In this document: positions 1,922-32,872 of the stretch, piece after piece
Layout of the letters: each line of letters opens with the position of its first letter
Numbering within the stretch: the stretch's first letter is position 1
Source of the DNA: a virus
Lineage: Duplodnaviria > Caudoviricetes
Length of the DNA: 56,372 nucleotides
Virus record (IMG/VR): IMGVR_UViG_3300032893_000057
Coordinates: 1 to 56,372 of that record
Strand: one strand, 5' to 3'
Position numbers and translations under genes: made by a program
Notes under the pieces: model-generated
Databases searched by the model: none
Seen by the model: only the letters and a program-made list of their open reading frames with translations
Told to the model about the DNA's origin: nothing

Positions 1922-1933
1922 CTACCGCGGTAG
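1922..1933. promoter_or_regulatory. Operator palindrome CTACCGCGGTAG
   Basis: One of ten CTACC-NN-GGTAG copies. Confidence 0.75.
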
Positions 1934-2497
1934 CGCCGCCTTCGCCTTCCGGCGGTCCCGGTCGATCCTCGCCTGGGCCGCATTGGCTGCCCGACAGGCG
2001 GGGCACCGGCAGCCGCGGTCCCGGTAGCCGTAGATCGTCCCATGCCGAGGGTCCGCCGAGTCCTCGGGCCTGAGCGGGCGCCGTCGCCGCTCATGGACGC
2101 CGTCGAAGCGCATGTGGCACGGGCGGCAAAGGGCTCGGTAGTCGTACGGGTCGGCGTAGCGCCCTGTGAGGTTGGCCCAGTCGATGCGACGGGTGCTGCT
2201 CCCGCACTCCTCACAGACCGTCGGTCGCCCGCGAGCATCCGCGACGCGGCGGTGGAAGGAGGCGTAACCCACCTCGTCGCCTCGCCACGCGTGGTGCCTC
2301 GACCCCCGTGGGTCTCCCTGGCGGCGGTGGACAACCACGCCGAGGCGCTTCAGGTCTCGGCTGACGGTGGTCTGACTGACCCCGACGCTCGCCGCGATCT
2401 CGTACTGCGATCGCCCAGCCTCGTAAAGCTGGGCGATCGTCAGACCCCGCATCGTTGGGCGGTCCCCCATTGTCCCCATCCTGCGTGTGCCGCCCAC
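1922..2497 (-). CDS. HTH + HNH-like endonuclease with C-terminal Cys/His knuckle (start uncertain)
   Basis: HTH (SQYEIAASVGVSQTTVSRDL); CEECG...WAN...LCRPCH; HGT...GCRCPAC. Confidence 0.75.
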   Translation of the reverse strand: MGGTRRMGTMGDRPTMRGLTIAQLYEAGRSQYEIAASVGVSQTTVSRDLKRLGVVVHRRQGDPRGSRHHAWRGDEVGYASFHRRVADARGRPTVCEECGSSTRRIDWANLTGRYADPYDYRALCRPCHMRFDGVHERRRRPLRPEDSADPRHGTIYGYRDRGCRCPACRAANAAQARIDRDRRKAKAALPR

Positions 2498-2907
2498 GCC
2501 TCTGCAACCTGGTCCTGGACGGCGGGGGGGGCGAGGTCAGCCCGACCCCCGAGCGTGAACTCGGGCCAGTCGGCGTATCGAGCGGCGGCGATCCAGGTGC
2601 TCGGGAGCCACTGCGCCGCGCCGAAGTACCCGTTGCCGGTGTTTTCTGAGTACGTGTCGCCGCTCTCGGCGTTCAGAATGCAAGGCCAGGGCCATGGCGG
2701 TGGCAGGTGCGGCACGTGGAAGGCGAGCCAGACCTTGAACCCGGGGTGGAGGCCGTCGAGGCAGTCGACGCGCTGCTGGCCCGTTGGCAGGCCGAGGCAC
2801 CAGCGGTCCGACAGGGTCGGGCCGGAAGAGGAGAAGTCGGCGCGCGCGCCGAGGACGACGGTGAGGATGGCGGCCACAACAAGGGCCGTGCTGCGGAAGG
2901 CTCGCAC
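2440..2907 (-). CDS. rpf: Secreted resuscitation-promoting factor (Rpf / transglycosylase-like) protein
   Basis: Signal peptide; Rpf motifs ILNAESG...NTGNGYFGAAQW...TW...ADLA...Q..VA...GWGQW; SD AAAGGAGG. Confidence 0.85.
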   Translation of the reverse strand: MRAFRSTALVVAAILTVVLGARADFSSSGPTLSDRWCLGLPTGQQRVDCLDGLHPGFKVWLAFHVPHLPPPWPWPCILNAESGDTYSENTGNGYFGAAQWLPSTWIAAARYADWPEFTLGGRADLAPPAVQDQVAEAWAAHAGWGQWGTAQRCGV

Positions 2908-26673: not shown

Positions 26674-26695
26674 CGCGTTACGCGCGCGTAACGCG
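26674..26695. repeat. Perfect 22-bp palindrome CGCGTTACGCGCGCGTAACGCG (copy 1)
   Basis: Lies between convergent genes; same core at 32848-32869. Confidence 0.9.
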
Positions 26696-28748: not shown

Positions 28749-31727
28749 GTGAGCGTCTCTGAGCGTCGCTACCGCATCGACGCCGACCTGAGCGATCGGG
28801 AGCGCCTCGCCGTCCTGCTGGCGTTGCGCGACAAGCGCGACCTGGCTGCGGTCGAGGCCGAGCGCCAGATGCTCGCCGAGCGCCAGGCCGTCGACGCCGT
28901 GTACACCCGCAAGGTCGGGCTGTACCACGACGACCCCGTCGCCTGGGCGCACGACTGCGTCATCTGGCGCCCCGGCGAGGGCCTGACCGCCTACCAGGCC
29001 GAGACCTTCCACGCCATGATCGAGCACGGCCGCGCCGCGGTGCGCGGCCCGCACGGCCTGGGCAAGACCTGCATGGAGTCGCTGGCGGTGCTCTGGTTCG
29101 CCCTCACCCGCGACGCCGCGGGCGAGGACTGGAAGGTGCCGACCACCGCGTCGGTCTGGGAGCAACTGAAGAACTTCCTCTGGCCCGAGATCCACAAGTG
29201 GGCCAAGCGCCTGCGCTGGGACGTGATCGGCCGCGAGCCCTTCGACACCCGCCGGGAACTGCTCCAGTGGAACCTGAAGCTGAACCACGGCGCCGCCTTC
29301 GCCATCAGCCCCGACGACCCCGCCCACCTGGAGGGCGCGCACGCCGAGCAACTGCTCTACGTCTACGACGAGTCCAAGGCCGTGAGCGACGCCACCTTCG
29401 ACGCCTCCGAGGGCGCGTTCTCGACCGCTGGCTCGGGCGGCACGGTCGCCTACGCCCTCGCCGTCTCGACGCCTGGCGAGCCCCAGGGCCGCTTCTACGA
29501 CATCCACGCCCGGCGCCCCGGCTTCACCGACTGGTGGGCGCGCCACGTCACCGTCGAGGAGTGCATGGCCGCTGGCCGGGTCACCGAGGAGTGGGTCTAC
29601 AACCGGGGCCTGATGTGGGGGATCGACTCGGCGGTCTACAAGAACCGCGTGCTGGGCGAGTTCGCCTCCTCCGCCACCGACGGCGTGATCCCGCTCGCCT
29701 GGGTCGAGGCGGCCAACGCCCGCTGGCGGATGCGGTACGAGCCCAACGGCGAGAAGCTGGGCGCCCACCGCGAGCCGCACCAGGGCACGCGCGCCGTGCT
29801 CCAGCCCGGCGAGAAGCTGCACACGATCGGCTGCGACATCGCTGCGGGCGGCGAGGACAAGACCGTGCTGGCGCTCCGCCAGGGCAACGCCATCGTCGAG
29901 CTACGCCGGGACGGCTACACCGACGACACGACGATCACCGCCGACCGGATCGTCGCCATCCAGCGGGCCCACGGCGAGCCCATGGCGATCGTCGACGCCA
30001 TCGGCGTGGGCGCTGGCGTGTTCAACGACATCCGCCGCGAGCACACCCCCTGCGCCCCGTTCATCTCCTCGGGCGCGACCAAGCGCCACGACCTCTCCGG
30101 CGAGTTCGGCTTCGCCAACTGCCTGACCGGCGATGCCCGGGTCTTGCCGATCGGCGAGCTACGCCGGGTCTACCGGGCTCGGCACAATGGCCCCCTCGTC
30201 CGGGTCCAGATGGCCTCGGGAGACGAGTTCACCGCCACCCCGAACCACCGCGTACTGGCGCCGAGTGGATGGGTCGCCGTCCATGCGCTGAGCGTGGGCG
30301 ACGACCTGGTCAGCGCCGAGGGCCGAGATTGGGCTGGCCCGAGTCACCCACACGTAGAGGACGTGCCAGCCTCGATCGGCGAGATGTACCGAGCGGAGCG
30401 CGAGCGAGGCGTCACCGAGCGGGTAGACGCCCGAACGGTGAACTTCCACGGCGACCGTCCCGTGGGTCAGGTCGATGTTGTACGTGTCGTCGGCGACCTG
30501 CTGGCCGTGCACGAACCCGGGCGGGAGCAGGTCGATCAGTGTGCGTTCGTAGGCTCGCTGGTGGGCCAGAGTCCGCTGCCTGGTCAGGGCGGCCTTGGCG
30601 CCCATCGGGTTCTGGACGACGGGTCGCCGGAACGGCACGTAGATGACCCGCGACCAGTCGCCCGCGAGGTGGTGGCGCTTGCCGGTGGCGACGTGCTGGG
30701 TAGCCCACAACCGGTTCGCCGTGCCGATGTCGCGCAGGGCCACCCCGGCCTCGGTCAGTTCGCGCCGCACGACCCACTCCCCGGTGTGAAGGCTCTTGGC
30801 GAGGGCGAGGACGGACTCGCCGCTCTCGTAGCGCCGGACGAGATAGACGCGGTCAAGGGGCCGCCGCCTGAGAGCGGCCGCCTCGGCTCGCGTCCGTCGC
30901 TCGATCCCATGTTCGGCGAGGATGCGTCGCACGACGCACCGGTCGATACCGAGCCCGGCGCAGATCGAGCGTTCCCCTTCGCCGCCGATGTACCGACGGA
31001 CCAGGTCGTCAGCATCGAGATCATCCCGCCGAGCAGGCATGGCACCATCCGCGTCTACACGGTCGAGACCTCGACCGGCGCCTATCGCACTACCAGCGTA
31101 GTCCACAAGAACTGTCGGTCCTGGGCCTGGTGGAACCTGCGCGAGATGCTCGACCCCGCCAACGGCATGGACCTGGCGCTGCCGCCCGACGACCTGCTGA
31201 CCGGCGACCTGCTCGCCCCGAAGTGGCGGGAGGTGTCCGGCGCGCGCATCCAGGTCGAGTCGAAGGACGACATCGGCAAGCGCCTCGGGCGCTCGACCGA
31301 CAACGGCGACGCCGTCGTCTACGCCTACAGCCGCTCGGGCGGCTCGTGGGCTGCGCTGTACGCCGGAGAGCCCGAGCAGACCGAGGAGGACGACGACGTG
31401 CCCCTGCCCACCCAGAAGCCCGCGCGCTCAGGCGGCTGGGGCGACGTCTACGCTCCCAGCGGCGGGGCGGCCCCGGATGCCAATGCGGCCCGGCCGGAGT
31501 CGCCTCGCCCCATCCAGACCAGCGGCTACTTCGCCGGGAGCCCGGTGATCGAGGCCAAGGCCCAGCCGAAGAGCGGCCCCGTCCCGACCGACGTCCTCGT
31601 CGACGAGCGGGCGCTCAACCGGCCCTGCCGCTGCGGCAACCTGCGCCGCGACCACTCCGGCGACCGCCATGACGGCCCCTGCACCGACGTCGAGTGCTCG
31701 TGCGAGCGGTTCGAGCCGCCCCGCTGA
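28749..31727 (+). CDS. terL: Terminase large subunit interrupted by an intein
   Basis: Walker A GPHGLGKT; Walker B YVYDES; coupling STP; nuclease GCDIA.GG.D, DAIGVG, STD.GDA. Confidence 0.92.
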   Translation: MSVSERRYRIDADLSDRERLAVLLALRDKRDLAAVEAERQMLAERQAVDAVYTRKVGLYHDDPVAWAHDCVIWRPGEGLTAYQAETFHAMIEHGRAAVRGPHGLGKTCMESLAVLWFALTRDAAGEDWKVPTTASVWEQLKNFLWPEIHKWAKRLRWDVIGREPFDTRRELLQWNLKLNHGAAFAISPDDPAHLEGAHAEQLLYVYDESKAVSDATFDASEGAFSTAGSGGTVAYALAVSTPGEPQGRFYDIHARRPGFTDWWARHVTVEECMAAGRVTEEWVYNRGLMWGIDSAVYKNRVLGEFASSATDGVIPLAWVEAANARWRMRYEPNGEKLGAHREPHQGTRAVLQPGEKLHTIGCDIAAGGEDKTVLALRQGNAIVELRRDGYTDDTTITADRIVAIQRAHGEPMAIVDAIGVGAGVFNDIRREHTPCAPFISSGATKRHDLSGEFGFANCLTGDARVLPIGELRRVYRARHNGPLVRVQMASGDEFTATPNHRVLAPSGWVAVHALSVGDDLVSAEGRDWAGPSHPHVEDVPASIGEMYRAERERGVTERVDARTVNFHGDRPVGQVDVVRVVGDLLAVHEPGREQVDQCAFVGSLVGQSPLPGQGGLGAHRVLDDGSPERHVDDPRPVAREVVALAGGDVLGSPQPVRRADVAQGHPGLGQFAPHDPLPGVKALGEGEDGLAALVAPDEIDAVKGPPPESGRLGSRPSLDPMFGEDASHDAPVDTEPGADRAFPFAADVPTDQVVSIEIIPPSRHGTIRVYTVETSTGAYRTTSVVHKNCRSWAWWNLREMLDPANGMDLALPPDDLLTGDLLAPKWREVSGARIQVESKDDIGKRLGRSTDNGDAVVYAYSRSGGSWAALYAGEPEQTEEDDDVPLPTQKPARSGGWGDVYAPSGGAAPDANAARPESPRPIQTSGYFAGSPVIEAKAQPKSGPVPTDVLVDERALNRPCRCGNLRRDHSGDRHDGPCTDVECSCERFEPPR
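30120..31112 (+). mobile_element. Intein (331 aa) in the TerL nuclease domain
   Basis: N-terminal CLTGDARV (block A), TATPNHRV (block B), VYTVET..G.Y...VVHKN/C (blocks F/G); splicing restores FAN-CRSWAWWNLRE. Confidence 0.88.
30159..31040 (-). CDS. Antisense HTH-HTH-Vsr/DUF559-like endonuclease nested in the intein
   Basis: Two tandem LVRRY..GE....I/LA..L......VRR.L...G...R repeats; YE..L..LL...Q....YNIDL....VAVEVH...L..RGW.VL.VW. Confidence 0.75.
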   Translation of the reverse strand: MPARRDDLDADDLVRRYIGGEGERSICAGLGIDRCVVRRILAEHGIERRTRAEAAALRRRPLDRVYLVRRYESGESVLALAKSLHTGEWVVRRELTEAGVALRDIGTANRLWATQHVATGKRHHLAGDWSRVIYVPFRRPVVQNPMGAKAALTRQRTLAHQRAYERTLIDLLPPGFVHGQQVADDTYNIDLTHGTVAVEVHRSGVYPLGDASLALRSVHLADRGWHVLYVWVTRASPISALGADQVVAHAQRMDGDPSTRRQYAVVRGGGELVSRGHLDPDEGAIVPSPVDPA

Positions 31728-31745
31728 AGATTCTTCGCTGAGCCG

Positions 31746-31772
31746 CTCAAGTCCCGGGGACGCCTGGCCGAT
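31746..31772 (+). promoter_or_regulatory. sigma28/FliA-type promoter
   Basis: CTCAAG-N15-GCCGAT-N9-ATG; AGATTCTTC upstream. Confidence 0.8.
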
Positions 31773-31781
31773 AGATAGGAC

Positions 31782-32141
31782 ATGGCAACCACTTCCCTCC
31801 CGAAGCTCCCCTACTACAGCGAGGCCACCCTCGACGAGATGACCCTCGCCGACCTGGTCGCCCTGGCGCAGACCCTCCGCCGTGGCCTCTACATCGCCTC
31901 CGAGGTCCGCTCCCCCGCCGCTGCGAAGTACGCAGGCCGCTCGCTCTTCATCCTGGAGCGCCTGGTCGAGCCCCGCATCGACGCCCTGCGCGCCGCCGAC
32001 CCCCGCCCGACCGTTGCCGAGTACGCCGCCTCCGAGCGGGCCCGCATCATCGCCCTCGGCGAGACCGACCTCGGCAACATCGAAGAGTGCGTCATGGCGA
32101 ACACCGAGTACGCCATCGAGGCCGGGCTGGTGAAGCCGTGA
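31782..32141 (+). CDS. Hypothetical protein, sigma28-type promoter
   Basis: Promoter spacing; GC3 bias. Confidence 0.8.
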   Translation: MATTSLPKLPYYSEATLDEMTLADLVALAQTLRRGLYIASEVRSPAAAKYAGRSLFILERLVEPRIDALRAADPRPTVAEYAASERARIIALGETDLGNIEECVMANTEYAIEAGLVKP

Positions 32142-32844: not shown

Positions 32845-32872
32845 GCTCGCGTTACGCGCGCGTAACGCGAGC
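32845..32872. repeat. Perfect 28-bp palindrome GCTCGCGTTACGCGCGCGTAACGCGAGC (copy 2)
   Basis: Read directly from the sequence. Confidence 0.9.

What the first reader, a model, noticed from the sequence alone, without database searches (positions are those of the whole stretch)
30120..31112. TerL intein whose putative homing endonuclease is encoded on the opposite strand
Seen: TerL contains a 331-aa intein (CLTGD..., TPNH, ...VHKN/C). Its central region reads as featureless sequence, with no LAGLIDADG or HNH motif. The minus strand in codon register (ATG 31040 to stop 30159, 293 aa) encodes two tandem HTH repeats (LVRRY..GE...VRR.L...G) followed by a Vsr/DUF559-like PD-(D/E)xK nuclease (YNIDL...VAVEVH...L..RGW.VL.VW). 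The antisense gene overlaps both splicing regions: DQVVSIEI is the reverse complement of DLDADDLV, and TPNHRVL is the reverse complement of QYAVVRG. Both ends are therefore potentially dual-coding. Established: inteins normally carry the endonuclease in-frame on the same strand. Inference: in high-GC DNA the codons TTA, CTA and TCA are rare, so a reverse-oriented endonuclease gene leaves the sense frame open. The intein would splice out that junk translation, while the nuclease is expressed separately from an antisense transcript. This would be a mobile-element architecture that uncouples homing from late TerL expression and is invisible to standard annotation.
Basis: partly seen in the sequence, partly recalled or inferred. 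Interest (0 to 1): 0.92.

Follow-up and report, generated by a model that had tools for sequence, protein, structure and literature searches.

The report
Terminase intein with antisense nuclease gene
A self-splicing protein insert (intein) in a phage DNA-packaging gene carries its likely mobility nuclease as a separate gene on the opposite DNA strand, codon against codon; the layout is real and widespread but was already described in a 2025 preprint.

Summary
The TerL gene (28749-31727, +) contains a 331-codon intein (30120-31112). It sits exactly where 41 of 41 intein-less TerL relatives have no insert.

The minus strand, in exact codon register, encodes a 293-aa protein (ATG 31040, stop 30159). 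It has two HTH units and a Vsr/DUF559-like nuclease. Its model is confident (pLDDT 89.6). The sense middle (intein residues 130-289) has no predicted structure.

The nuclease belongs to a large family: 1585 cluster representatives at E<=0.001. In 167 distinct loci examined, every copy lies antisense, in register, inside an open intein-bearing gene, at 40-72% GC.

Selection acts on the nuclease frame in the middle, on both frames over the nuclease core, and on the intein frame around block B. In most relatives the nuclease start codon, a Shine-Dalgarno-like site and a -10-like hexamer are written inside intein blocks F and G. The window's copy has only weak versions.

Expression, splicing and homing are inferred, not shown.

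Anti-sense Vsr-like endonucleases in actinophage inteins are reported in bioRxiv 10.1101/2025.01.02.630785, and this scan has found the family before on other DNA. This is a new member of a known kind.

The parts
28749..31727 (+). Large terminase (TerL) precursor ORF, 992 aa, including the intein
   Evidence: ORF. PHROG phrog_2 'terminase large subunit' E 9.1e-21 over residues 49-463. blastn matches to genes annotated as terminase in Streptomyces phages on both sides of the intein, none inside it.
30120..31112 (+). Intein, 331 codons: Cys1 (CLTGD), block B TPNH, C-terminal ...VVHKN, followed by the +1 Cys of the C-extein
   Evidence: Sequence. 41 of 41 intein-less TerL relatives have 0 nt inserted at this junction, and L021 and L063 carry 1164 and 999 nt at the same site. 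The AF2 model matches intein splicing domains, e.g. Mtu RecA mini-intein, probability 1.00.
30120..30494 (+). N-terminal Hint lobe (intein residues 1 to about 125), including block B T40-P-N-H43 at 30237-30248
   Evidence: pLDDT per 10-residue block: 93 92 94 95 95 97 79 53 86 89 82 76. T40, H43, G24, G50, F109 and G111 are invariant in 42 sense inteins.
30507..30986 (+). Sense-frame middle of the intein (residues 130-289): no predicted structure, not conserved in this frame
   Evidence: pLDDT 35-49 even with a 42-sequence alignment. Across family pairs, sense-frame identity is 0.15-0.17 against 0.28-0.29 in the nuclease frame.
30987..31112 (+). C-terminal Hint lobe (residues 290-331, blocks F and G), ending ...VVHKN
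   Evidence: pLDDT 95 80 93 91 80. It aligns with the GHVYNLxT...HN blocks of relatives.
30159..31040 (-). Antisense nuclease gene: ATG 31040-31038, 293 codons, stop 30161-30159. It is in codon register with TerL and covers intein codons 14-307
   Evidence: ORF. 11 of the 150 listed phmmer hits align their residue 1 to query residue 23, which is this ATG. AF2 mean pLDDT 89.6. All columns conserved at 90% or more in the family are present in this copy.
30750..31013 (-). Two helix-turn-helix units (nuclease residues about 10-43 and 64-97)
   Evidence: Pfam HTH_58, 38.6 bits, two stretches. The family profile matches the tandem-HTH structure 2lvs, E 5e-10, positions 10-100. Helices 10-18, 23-30, 34-43 and 64-72, 77-83, 88-97 in the model.
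30279..30608 (-). Vsr/DUF559-like nuclease core (residues about 145-254). The conserved motif Y187-N-x-D190 ... V-A-V-E199-V-H201 lies at 30438-30482
   Evidence: The profile matches 3hrl 'Endonuclease-Like Protein', E 4.4e-6, positions 154-250. Pfam MTES_1575 REase matches 41 of 64 and DUF559 11 of 64 aligned relatives. BFVD matches include 'DNA mismatch endonuclease' and 'DUF559 domain-containing protein'. Y187 and E199 are invariant.
30177..30260 (-). C-terminal beta-strands of the nuclease (residues 261-288, motif RQYAVVRGGGE), encoded opposite intein block B
   Evidence: Strands 261-267, 272-279 and 284-288 at pLDDT 80-97. In this region the sense frame is the more conserved one, 0.489 against 0.319.
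31038..31040 (-). Nuclease start codon ATG, the reverse complement of the His codon CAT in intein block F (..SRHG..)
   Evidence: In 96 relatives with all landmarks found, the inferred start is the reverse complement of a block F His codon: 74 ATG, 19 GTG, 3 TTG. The 3 TTG are fall-backs of the heuristic.
31045..31050 (-). Weak Shine-Dalgarno-like GGATGG, 4 nt upstream of the ATG (a candidate only)
   Evidence: Upstream string. Relatives mostly carry GGAG or GAGG here (62 of 85, against 9.1% of random 18-mers). The window does not.
31095..31100 (-). TACGCT (TANNNT), a weak -10-like candidate inside block G codons (Ser-Val, with the rare Val codon GTA)
   Evidence: Sequence. The tool scan found no sigma-70-type site in 29800-31800. 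In relatives, a hexamer matching TATAAT at 5 of 6 or better lies at -60..-41 in 29 of 50 high-GC loci, against 0.4% of random 20-mers.

Best explanation
This is a mobile intein of the 'anti-sense Vsr-like homing endonuclease' kind, sitting in the large terminase gene of an uncultured high-GC phage. TerL is translated straight through the insert. The N-terminal (about 125 aa) and C-terminal (about 42 aa) Hint lobes fold. The roughly 160 residues between them are a structureless linker with no function of their own. Protein splicing then joins ...GFAN to CRSWAWW... On the other strand, on the same codon triplets, lies a 293-aa protein with two HTH DNA-binding units, a helical linker and a Vsr/DUF559-like PD-(D/E)xK nuclease. 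Because the two frames are in register, the only synonymous restriction on the nuclease is to avoid the codons TTA, CTA and TCA. The most likely role of this protein is to recognise and cut intein-less TerL alleles (...FxN|xRSxxWW...) during co-infection, so that repair copies the intein and nuclease into them (homing). Shown here: the anatomy, the fold predictions, the homology, the nesting in all relatives, and the strand-specific pattern of selection. Inferred: splicing, antisense transcription and translation, cleavage specificity and homing.
For: Anatomy and boundaries: (41 of 41 intein-less relatives have 0 nt at the junction). Hint fold of the sense product with an unstructured middle. 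Nuclease identity. Control for mirror conservation: the sense protein matches phage records only over residues 1-110 or less in the 40 rows listed, and 0 of 86 records cover 80%. The antisense protein covers up to 85% at E 4e-25. Nesting: 9 of 9 GenBank phage loci have the match opposite the annotated host gene. 121 of 121 distinct members from phage records and viral contigs have the register-0 opposite frame open, against 0 of 121 for each of the other two opposite frames. 45 of 46 members in cellular genomes do as well, and the 46th was resolved as nested on inspection. Selection: nuclease-frame identity exceeds sense identity in 6395 of 6433 pairs. Near-identical pairs differ at nuclease codon positions 1/2/3 in 4/5/38 sites. 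There is a regional gradient. In the window's own population, a variant contig carries 7 changes. Five are synonymous for the nuclease and non-synonymous in the sense frame; one of 7 is synonymous in the sense frame. Expression signals in relatives: start codon equals the block F His codon. Leu codon CTC occurs in 66 of 85, and GGAG or GAGG in 62 of 85, against 9.1% at random. A -10-like hexamer sits at a fixed distance. Prior description of the same architecture in actinophages.
Against: No expression data exist: no RNA run holds the stretch, and the laid contigs show no intein-less form. This window's copy lacks the family's strong signals. It has GGATGG instead of GGAGG, TACGCT instead of TAYAAT, and no sigma-70-type site by the tool. 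The penultimate intein residue is Lys, not His. Pfam does not call a nuclease family on the window's own protein; it calls one only on 41 of 64 relatives and through the family profile. Foldseek of the whole two-domain nuclease model against the PDB gave nothing at E<=0.001. Intein identity (0.55-0.61 in the N-lobe) and extein identity (0.43-0.51) among the three TerL-hosted copies are comparable, so recent horizontal transfer is not shown. At 70% GC the open sense frame in this one window needs no selection (P about 0.38).
Confidence: 0.8

Rival explanations
1. The antisense gene in this particular window is a decaying relic. The intein still splices and is inherited vertically, but the nuclease is no longer expressed or active.
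For: The initiation and promoter-like signals are weak compared with the family consensus. Only 3 of 44 related TerL genes carry the intein, and their intein and extein divergences are similar. No intein-less allele was seen in the same samples (contigs only).
Against: The ORF is intact over 293 codons. It keeps every column conserved at 90% or more in the family and models at pLDDT 89.6. A population variant has 5 of 7 changes synonymous for the nuclease. High-GC actinobacterial promoters and leaderless or weak-SD starts would not be seen by the E. coli-type scans used here; this last point rests on my own knowledge.
Confidence: 0.12
2. The antisense protein is real and expressed, but it is not a homing endonuclease. 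It could be an HTH regulator, or a nuclease used for competition or exclusion between phages, that merely shelters inside the intein.
For: Cleavage specificity is untested. The HTH units resemble regulator, resolvase and transposase HTH domains. Every member examined is nested, so there are no free-standing relatives to inform function.
Against: The protein occupies exactly the endonuclease slot of an intein. It is found with the same intein family in several unrelated host genes and insertion sites: TerL FAN|C, MuF-type NC|RC and others. Carriers are sporadic among TerL relatives. Vsr-like nucleases are predicted homing endonucleases in split-intein loci and group I introns (abstract of PMC2677866).
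Confidence: 0.06
3. The antisense ORF is a chance open frame of high-GC DNA, and its apparent homologies are the mirror image of conservation in the sense (intein) frame.
For: Long spurious ORFs are common here. Register-0 antisense frames share second codon positions, so some mirrored identity is expected: sense 0.205 against nuclease 0.295 in distant pairs. The motif FHGD (sense) mirrors VAVE (nuclease).
Against: The Pfam HTH_58 match is above its curated cut-off. The family profile matches solved HTH and DUF559-like structures. The fold is confident. Substitutions pile up on the nuclease wobble position in the middle region. The sense protein finds no relatives beyond its first 110 residues. 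The same arrangement holds at 40-50% GC, where about 6 stop-generating codons per gene would be expected and none is seen.
Confidence: 0.01

Closest known systems
Inteins with an anti-sense VSR-like homing endonuclease in actinobacteriophages (Gosselin, Arsenault, Gogarten, bioRxiv 10.1101/2025.01.02.630785, version of 2025-10-20). I read the abstract, sections 8, 15 and 28, and term searches; the supplements were closed.
   Same: A full, unsplit intein with the host frame open. A Vsr-like nuclease ORF on the opposite strand in the endonuclease slot. An unstructured sense middle. Hosts include minor capsid and terminase large subunit genes. The window's nuclease is homologous to ORFs antisense to the Gordonia phage MuF genes of that data set's phage group (E 4e-25).
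   Different: The preprint covers only PhagesDB actinophages. In the text I could search, it does not mention codon register, promoter, ribosome-binding site or dual coding. [quoted passage not shown] Here the nuclease covers intein codons 14-307 of 331, including blocks B and F. From the main text I could not tell whether its Vsr-like cases include TerL hosts; the supplemental tables may say.
Inteins with an antisense LAGLIDADG endonuclease (Synechocystis DnaX, Chloroflexus SpoVR-like; Gorbalenya 1998 and Gogarten 2002, as cited in the preprint; I did not read these papers)
   Same: The endonuclease is encoded on the strand opposite an intact intein.
   Different: The nuclease family differs (LAGLIDADG against HTH plus Vsr/DUF559-like). 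The cited cases are cellular hosts.
'Fractured genes': split inteins with a free-standing Vsr-like endonuclease gene between the halves (Dassa et al. 2009, PMC2677866; abstract and outline read)
   Same: A Vsr-related putative homing nuclease associated with inteins, mainly in phages. The nuclease is a separate gene, not a domain of the intein.
   Different: There the host gene and intein are broken into two ORFs. Here the sense frame is continuous: 0 stops in 167 loci, counting L186 after inspection. The nuclease is antisense and codon-registered.
Canonical bifunctional inteins with an in-frame LAGLIDADG or HNH domain (for example the archaeal VMA inteins of PMC8966425, passages read)
   Same: A Hint splicing domain interrupted at the same topological point by the mobility nuclease coding region. 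Presumed homing into empty alleles.
   Different: In those, the nuclease is part of the intein polypeptide and is made only when the host gene is translated. Here it is a separate protein from the other strand.
DUF559 / Vsr very-short-patch-repair type endonuclease fold (PDB 3hrl, 1cw0)
   Same: The family profile matches 3hrl at E 4.4e-6 over the core. DUF559 or MTES_1575 Pfam matches occur in relatives.
   Different: The match to Vsr itself (1cw0) is only E 0.5. This family adds two N-terminal HTH units and C-terminal beta-strands that are co-encoded with intein block B.

Membership tests
Intein (Hint domain, class 1 type) | N-terminal nucleophile (Cys/Ser) at residue 1 | tested here: met
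   Cys at 30120-30122 (CLTGD). C1 is conserved at 90% or more in 42 aligned inteins.
Intein (Hint domain, class 1 type) | Block B TxxH | tested here: met
   T40-P-N-H43 at 30237-30248. T40 and H43 are invariant in 42 sequences.
Intein (Hint domain, class 1 type) | C-terminal Asn followed by Cys/Ser/Thr at +1 | tested here: met
   ...VVHKN|C. N331 is invariant.
Intein (Hint domain, class 1 type) | Penultimate His (usual but not universal; that it is dispensable in some inteins is my recollection) | tested here: not met
   The residue is Lys in the window. Relatives show H, S, R, K, G, Q or A at this place.
Intein (Hint domain, class 1 type) | Hint fold | tested here: met
   In the AF2 model, residues 1 to about 125 and 290-331 are confident. 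The top Foldseek matches are intein splicing domains: Mtu RecA, probability 1.00, E 3.8e-3.
Intein (Hint domain, class 1 type) | Precise in-frame insertion relative to intein-less homologues | tested here: met
   41 of 41 TerL relatives have 0 nt inserted at the junction. Two others carry 999 and 1164 nt there.
Intein (Hint domain, class 1 type) | Protein splicing activity | not testable with these tools
   This needs expression of the precursor.
Anti-sense Vsr-like HEN inteins (Gosselin et al. 2025 preprint) | Unsplit intein with the host frame open across the insert | tested here: met
   0 stops in the window. 121 of 121 and 45 of 46 relatives are open, and the exception was resolved on inspection.
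Anti-sense Vsr-like HEN inteins (Gosselin et al. 2025 preprint) | Nuclease ORF on the antisense strand within the intein | tested here: met
   31040-30159 (-) lies inside 30120-31112.
Anti-sense Vsr-like HEN inteins (Gosselin et al. 2025 preprint) | Homology to the actinophage examples | tested here: met
   tblastn to the antisense strand of the MuF genes of Gordonia phages Vivi2, Fosterous, Affeca, Angelicage, Sedona and Keitabear, E 4e-25 to 6e-13. Whether these very phages are the preprint's Vsr-like cases is in its supplements, which I could not open.
Vsr / DUF559-like PD-(D/E)xK nuclease | Sequence or profile similarity to the family core | tested here: met
   Family profile against 3hrl, E 4.4e-6. 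MTES_1575 matches 41 of 64 and DUF559 11 of 64 relatives. The window's own protein alone gives no Pfam nuclease hit at E<=1.
Vsr / DUF559-like PD-(D/E)xK nuclease | Conserved acidic active-site residues on an alpha/beta core | tested here: inconclusive
   D190 and E199 (invariant E, Y187) lie on predicted strands 187-193 and 196-202. Their catalytic role is assumed, not shown.
EDxHD homing endonucleases (I-Bth0305I, PDB 3R3P) | Detectable similarity to 3R3P and the EDxHD motif (the motif is recalled from the family name) | tested here: not met
   3R3P is not among the 47 PDB sequences matched at E<=1 by the family profile. No literal E-D-x-H-D string occurs in the window's protein. The preprint reports an HHpred match (E 4.6e-5) for its Vsr-like HEN, so a more sensitive method might still link them.
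Fractured gene with split intein (Dassa et al. 2009) | Host gene and intein split into two ORFs by the nuclease gene | tested here: not met
   The sense frame is continuous through the intein.
Pfam HTH_58 (PF19575) | Score above the gathering cut-off | tested here: met
   38.6 bits against 23.8, two stretches.
Terminase large subunit | Similarity to TerL families | tested here: met
   phrog_2, E 9.1e-21. DNA similarity to annotated terminase genes. No Pfam or NCBIfam terminase model matched.

The most novel reading that the evidence does not exclude
The whole nuclease family (1585 cluster representatives at E<=0.001) is an obligately nested, two-strand element rather than an occasional accident of a free-standing endonuclease landing in an intein. 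Its catalytic core is co-encoded, codon against codon, with the folded N-terminal Hint lobe. Its -10 element, Shine-Dalgarno site and start codon are written in the codons of intein blocks G and F (I-I/V-x-H-N, N-L-Q and His). So the intein and the nuclease have co-evolved as one unit, with a self-contained antisense expression cassette that frees homing from the timing of late structural-gene expression.
Probability: 0.45. Interest if true: 0.7.

Novelty: new member of a known kind. Interest (0 to 1): 0.55.

Why it matters
For this window, the result corrects the annotation. One stretch of about 880 bp encodes two proteins, and the terminase is an intein-bearing precursor.

For the field, the wider survey suggests three things. 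First, the arrangement reported for a few dozen actinophage inteins is widespread, occurring in phages and prophages of many phyla at 40-72% GC. Second, it is strictly codon-registered. Third, it overlaps functional parts of both proteins.

This gives a natural system for studying long antisense dual coding of two folded domains. It also bears on how homing endonucleases join inteins. Practically, gene callers and phage annotation rules that allow one frame per locus will keep missing these genes: 9 of 9 GenBank records examined had missed them.

The -10, SD and ATG signals embedded in splicing blocks are directly testable in cultured phages such as Gordonia Vivi2, Aaphi23 and E. coli Kagunavirus.

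Tried and rejected
Chance ORF or mirror conservation: rejected (see the third rival).

Split ('fractured') intein: rejected, because the sense frame is continuous.

In-frame endonuclease: rejected. Pfam gives only a weak Intein_splicing match on the sense insert, and AF2 gives pLDDT 35-49 for residues 130-289 even with an alignment.

GTG 31106 as the start (315 aa): less likely than ATG 31040. Homologues begin at the position of the ATG, and the family start maps to the block F His codon.

Foldseek of the whole nuclease model against the PDB gave no match at E<=0.001. This was probably because the model has several domains and only whole models can be searched. The sequence profile and BFVD were used instead.

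NCBIfam gave only a sub-threshold HTH_Cbp1 hit for the nuclease and nothing for the exteins.

A single-protein scan of viral contigs found no relative. The first homologue search returned only 3 called proteins.

The sigma-70 and terminator scan of 29800-31800 found nothing.

Expression: no RNA holder was listed for the stretch. The laid DNA contigs of three runs showed no joint, so no intein-less form was seen. Contigs cannot show absence.

Horizontal transfer among the three TerL-hosted copies could not be decided from identities, and no tree test was run.

The loop-less palindromes that another note places at 26674-26695 and 32845-32872 were not recovered by the repeat finder at minimum length 16. 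That setting is too long for such short arms, so this is not a test.

Rows dropped before counts:
- One search removed identical hit regions: 130 ORF hits reduced to 121 distinct, after setting aside one weak second window hit (E 4.8e-7).
- One search dropped 25 of 121 where a contig end or my motif heuristics left block A, B or G, or a start, unassigned.
- One search used the 85 of 121 with a canonical block F string. The window's own TerL type is not among them.
- Searches used the 76 with that string, the start 19 codons before the penultimate residue, and at least 100 nt upstream.
- One search kept the 46 distinct hits with the nuclease domain out of 49 loci with a hit. 35 of 84 pattern loci were chance pattern matches with no family hit.

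The supplements of the preprint were closed. Its Supplemental Table 1 and figures may list TerL-hosted Vsr-like cases and ORF coordinates that bear on the novelty claims.

Full report
WHAT IS THERE. The window is a 56,372-base IMG/VR virus record, estimated 64% complete. The + strand ORF 28749..31727 (992 aa) is a large terminase. It matches PHROG phrog_2 at E 9.1e-21 over residues 49-463. Its DNA resembles annotated terminase genes of Streptomyces and Actinoplanes phages on both sides of the region in question, but not inside it (14 records, none covering 80% of the query).

Between ...GEFGFAN and CRSWAWWNLRE... lies a 331-codon insert (30120-31112). It begins CLTGD, has TPNH at residues 40-43, and ends VVHKN.

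I fetched 41 TerL relatives from viral contigs (39-64% identical in the N-extein). All 41 have 0 nt at this junction. Their +1 residue is S, L, I, T or V where the alignment shows it, never Cys. Two further contigs (L021, L063) carry 1164 and 999 nt at the same site, followed by Cys.

THE ANTISENSE GENE. The minus strand is open from 31106 to 30159. The ATG at 31040 gives 293 aa on the same codon triplets as TerL.

- Pfam calls HTH_58 above its cut-off (38.6 against 23.8 bits, two stretches).
- phmmer against 1.84 billion cluster representatives finds 1585 proteins at E<=0.001, 653 at 1e-10 or better, and 16 at 1e-30 or better. 11 of the 150 listed rows align their first residue to the ATG-encoded Met.
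- A 64-sequence alignment (A1) has invariant Y187 and E199. N188, D190, R216, G224 and W225 are nearly invariant. All are present in the window.
- The profile of A1 matches a solved tandem-HTH protein (2lvs, E 5e-10, positions 10-100) and a DUF559-type 'Endonuclease-Like Protein' (3hrl, E 4.4e-6, positions 154-250). Vsr itself (1cw0) scores only E 0.5.
- Of the 64 members, 46 match HTH_58, 41 match the REase family MTES_1575, and 11 match DUF559.
- AlphaFold2 with A1 gives mean pLDDT 89.6. The model has two three-helix units, a helical linker with one disordered loop (123-139), an alpha/beta core, and three C-terminal strands.
- Foldseek against viral predicted structures finds proteins named endonuclease, DNA mismatch endonuclease and DUF559 (best E 2.5e-13). 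Against the PDB, the whole multi-domain model gives nothing at E<=0.001.

THE SENSE PRODUCT. With a 42-sequence alignment of sense inteins (A2), AlphaFold2 folds residues 1 to about 125 and 290-331 confidently. It leaves 130-289 at pLDDT 35-49. The best PDB matches are intein splicing domains, for example Mtu RecA mini-intein at probability 1.00.

IS THE ANTISENSE SIMILARITY ONLY A MIRROR OF SENSE CONSERVATION? No, for four reasons.

- tblastn with the antisense protein finds 28 phage records, up to 85% coverage at E 4e-25. tblastn with the sense intein finds 86 records. None covers 80%, and the 40 listed rows match only residues 1-110 or less.
- In all 9 GenBank loci I opened, the match lies on the strand opposite the annotated host gene, and no antisense gene is annotated. 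The loci were Gordonia phages Vivi2, Malisha and Sedona, Mycobacterium phage Sejanus, Haemophilus phage Aaphi23, Idiomarinaceae phage 1N2-2, Cronobacter phage ES2, Escherichia phage vB-Eco-KMB36 and virus Rctr197k. The host genes are MuF-like minor capsid, minor head, capsid maturation protease, or hypothetical.
- Across 121 distinct family members aligned by codon, nuclease-frame identity exceeds sense-frame identity in 6395 of 6433 pairs. The 6 near-identical pairs differ at nuclease codon positions 1/2/3 in 4/5/38 sites.
- In the window's own population, one variant contig (126 nt, depth 4.7, from a run that may be the source sample) carries 7 changes. Five are synonymous for the nuclease and non-synonymous in the sense frame. 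Only one is synonymous in the sense frame.

NESTING IS UNIVERSAL IN WHAT I SAMPLED. All of them carry a family hit. Together with the GenBank loci and the window, this gives 121 distinct members.

- In 121 of 121, the opposite-strand frame in codon register is open through the whole hit and far beyond it (sense ORFs of 193-2008 aa).
- The other two opposite frames are open in 0 of 121, with medians of 7 and 10 stops.
- GC content ranges from 0.40 to 0.72.

In cellular genomes the same pattern found 84 loci. 49 have a family hit; the other 35 are chance pattern matches. Of 46 distinct hits, 45 are nested by the automatic count. The apparent exception (L186) came from a spurious weak domain that stretched the hit past the host gene's stop codon. 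The nuclease proper is nested there too.

If the nuclease genes used TTA, CTA and TCA as their host exteins do, about 385 such codons would be expected in 114 loci, or about 6 per gene below 50% GC. None is seen. For the window itself the expectation is only 0.97, giving P(0) of about 0.38.

HOW THE TWO GENES SHARE THE DNA. In the window the nuclease covers intein codons 14-307 of 331. Nuclease residue r lies opposite intein residue 308 - r.

- The HTH units and linker (residues 15-176) lie opposite the structureless sense middle.
- The catalytic core and C-terminal strands (about 183-293) lie opposite the folded N-terminal Hint lobe.
- The first 15 codons lie opposite block F.

Selection follows this map (all pairs):

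| Region | Nuclease-frame identity | Sense-frame identity | Note |
|---|---|---|---|
| HTH and linker | 0.28-0.29 | 0.15-0.17 | most change at the nuclease wobble position |
| Nuclease core | 0.315 | 0.297 | equal change at codon positions 1 and 3, least at position 2 |
| C-terminal strands | 0.319 | 0.489 | most change at the sense wobble position; the intein (block B) dominates |

The conserved sense string FHGD is the mirror of the nuclease VAVE. The nuclease C-terminal motif YxV[IV]RG mirrors TPNHP[VI]L.

EXPRESSION SIGNALS INSIDE THE SPLICING BLOCKS (family level).

- Start codon. In 96 members where all landmarks could be placed, the nuclease start is the reverse complement of the block F His codon: 74 ATG and 19 GTG, plus 3 TTG that are fall-backs of the heuristic. 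In 68 of the 96 it lies exactly 19 codons before the penultimate intein residue.
- Shine-Dalgarno site. In the 85 with the canonical block F string, the Leu of ..VYNLQT.. is CTC in 66. CTC is 33% of Leu codons in the same ORFs. This gives GGAG or GAGG 8-12 nt upstream of the ATG in 62 of 85, against 9.1% of random 18-mers.
- The -10 element. In the 76 with standard spacing, a hexamer matching TATAAT at 5 of 6 or better (with A2 and T6) lies at -60..-41. It is found in 29 of 50 loci at GC >= 0.55, against 0.4% of random 20-mers and almost none in any other bin from -200 to +200. It is found in 11 of 26 loci at lower GC, against 4%.
- Codon basis. The hexamer is made from the codons for the two hydrophobic residues before xHN. 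The second of these is an NTA codon in 21 of 50 high-GC loci, against a 4.7% share among I/V/L codons of the exteins.

These are consensus matches, not evidence of transcription.

The window's copy has only GGATGG (31050-31045) and TACGCT (31100-31095). The latter is built on a rare GTA Val codon. The tool scan finds no sigma-70-type site.

Dassa et al. 2009 (PMC2677866; abstract read) described Vsr-related putative homing endonucleases as free-standing genes between split-intein halves.

My literature searches were: 'intein' with 'opposite strand'; with 'antisense'; with 'complementary strand' and 'overlapping'; with 'mycobacteriophage' and 'terminase'; and with 'anti-sense'. They turned up no other description. 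The main text of the preprint has no occurrence of promoter, ribosom-, register or dual.

This scan has also reported the same family on other DNA several times. Examples are e1-176563 (exact codon register, own promoter), e1-3422237 and e1-1359511 (MuF NCRC site).

VERDICT. The thing is real and elegant, but it is a new member (TerL-hosted, uncultured high-GC phage) of a kind already in print as a preprint.
- the breadth of the family;
- the strict codon register;
- the extent of overlap with functional intein parts;
- the regional selection gradient;
- the embedded start, SD and -10 signals.

Expression, splicing, cleavage and homing remain inferred.

Noticed in passing
window about 1925-2536 (-): A second minus-strand ORF gives a weak match (E 4.8e-7) to the HTH part only (profile positions 63-101) of the family profile. 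It is probably an unrelated HTH protein.
   Followed up: no
L014 (IMG/VR contig), one sense ORF of 1335 aa: Two separate inteins of this family, each with its own antisense nuclease gene, sit in the same host gene. The hits lie at sense residues 83-292 and 376-602, ending ...HNS and ...HNC.
   Followed up: partly
L021:2092-3255 (-): This TerL-hosted relative has a larger insert (388 codons). Its nuclease has an extra, third HTH repeat. It has no His/ATG at the usual block F position (Gln instead), so its start codon is unclear.
   Followed up: partly
window 30858-30983: A variant contig in run X1 (depth 4.7) differs at 7 places. Five of the changes are synonymous on the minus strand and non-synonymous on the plus strand. 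Run X3, from another study, holds identical short contigs across both intein junctions.
   Followed up: yes
window 30120-30490 (+), PHROG phrog_15127: The N-terminal Hint lobe matches a PHROG family labelled 'head protein' (E 6.6e-16). That family profile evidently contains the intein of MuF-type head genes, so its label can mislead annotation.
   Followed up: no
L186 (Streptomyces synnematoformans contig): This was the only automatic exception to nesting. It was an artefact of a spurious weak domain hit in a long GC-rich open frame. The real nuclease is nested in a gene ending ...IIVSNCACQAWP.
   Followed up: yes
window 26674-26695 and 32845-32872: Another first-stage note reports two copies of a loop-less palindrome bracketing the terminase region. 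My inverted-repeat search at minimum length 16 did not list them. That setting is unsuited to short arms, so they remain unchecked.
   Followed up: partly
phage records (63 Salmonella phage records, Jerseyvirus-like): Their head-morphogenesis genes match the window's intein N-lobe (residues 1-90, about 37% identity). They did not appear in the antisense-protein search. These inteins may carry a different endonuclease or none.
   Followed up: no
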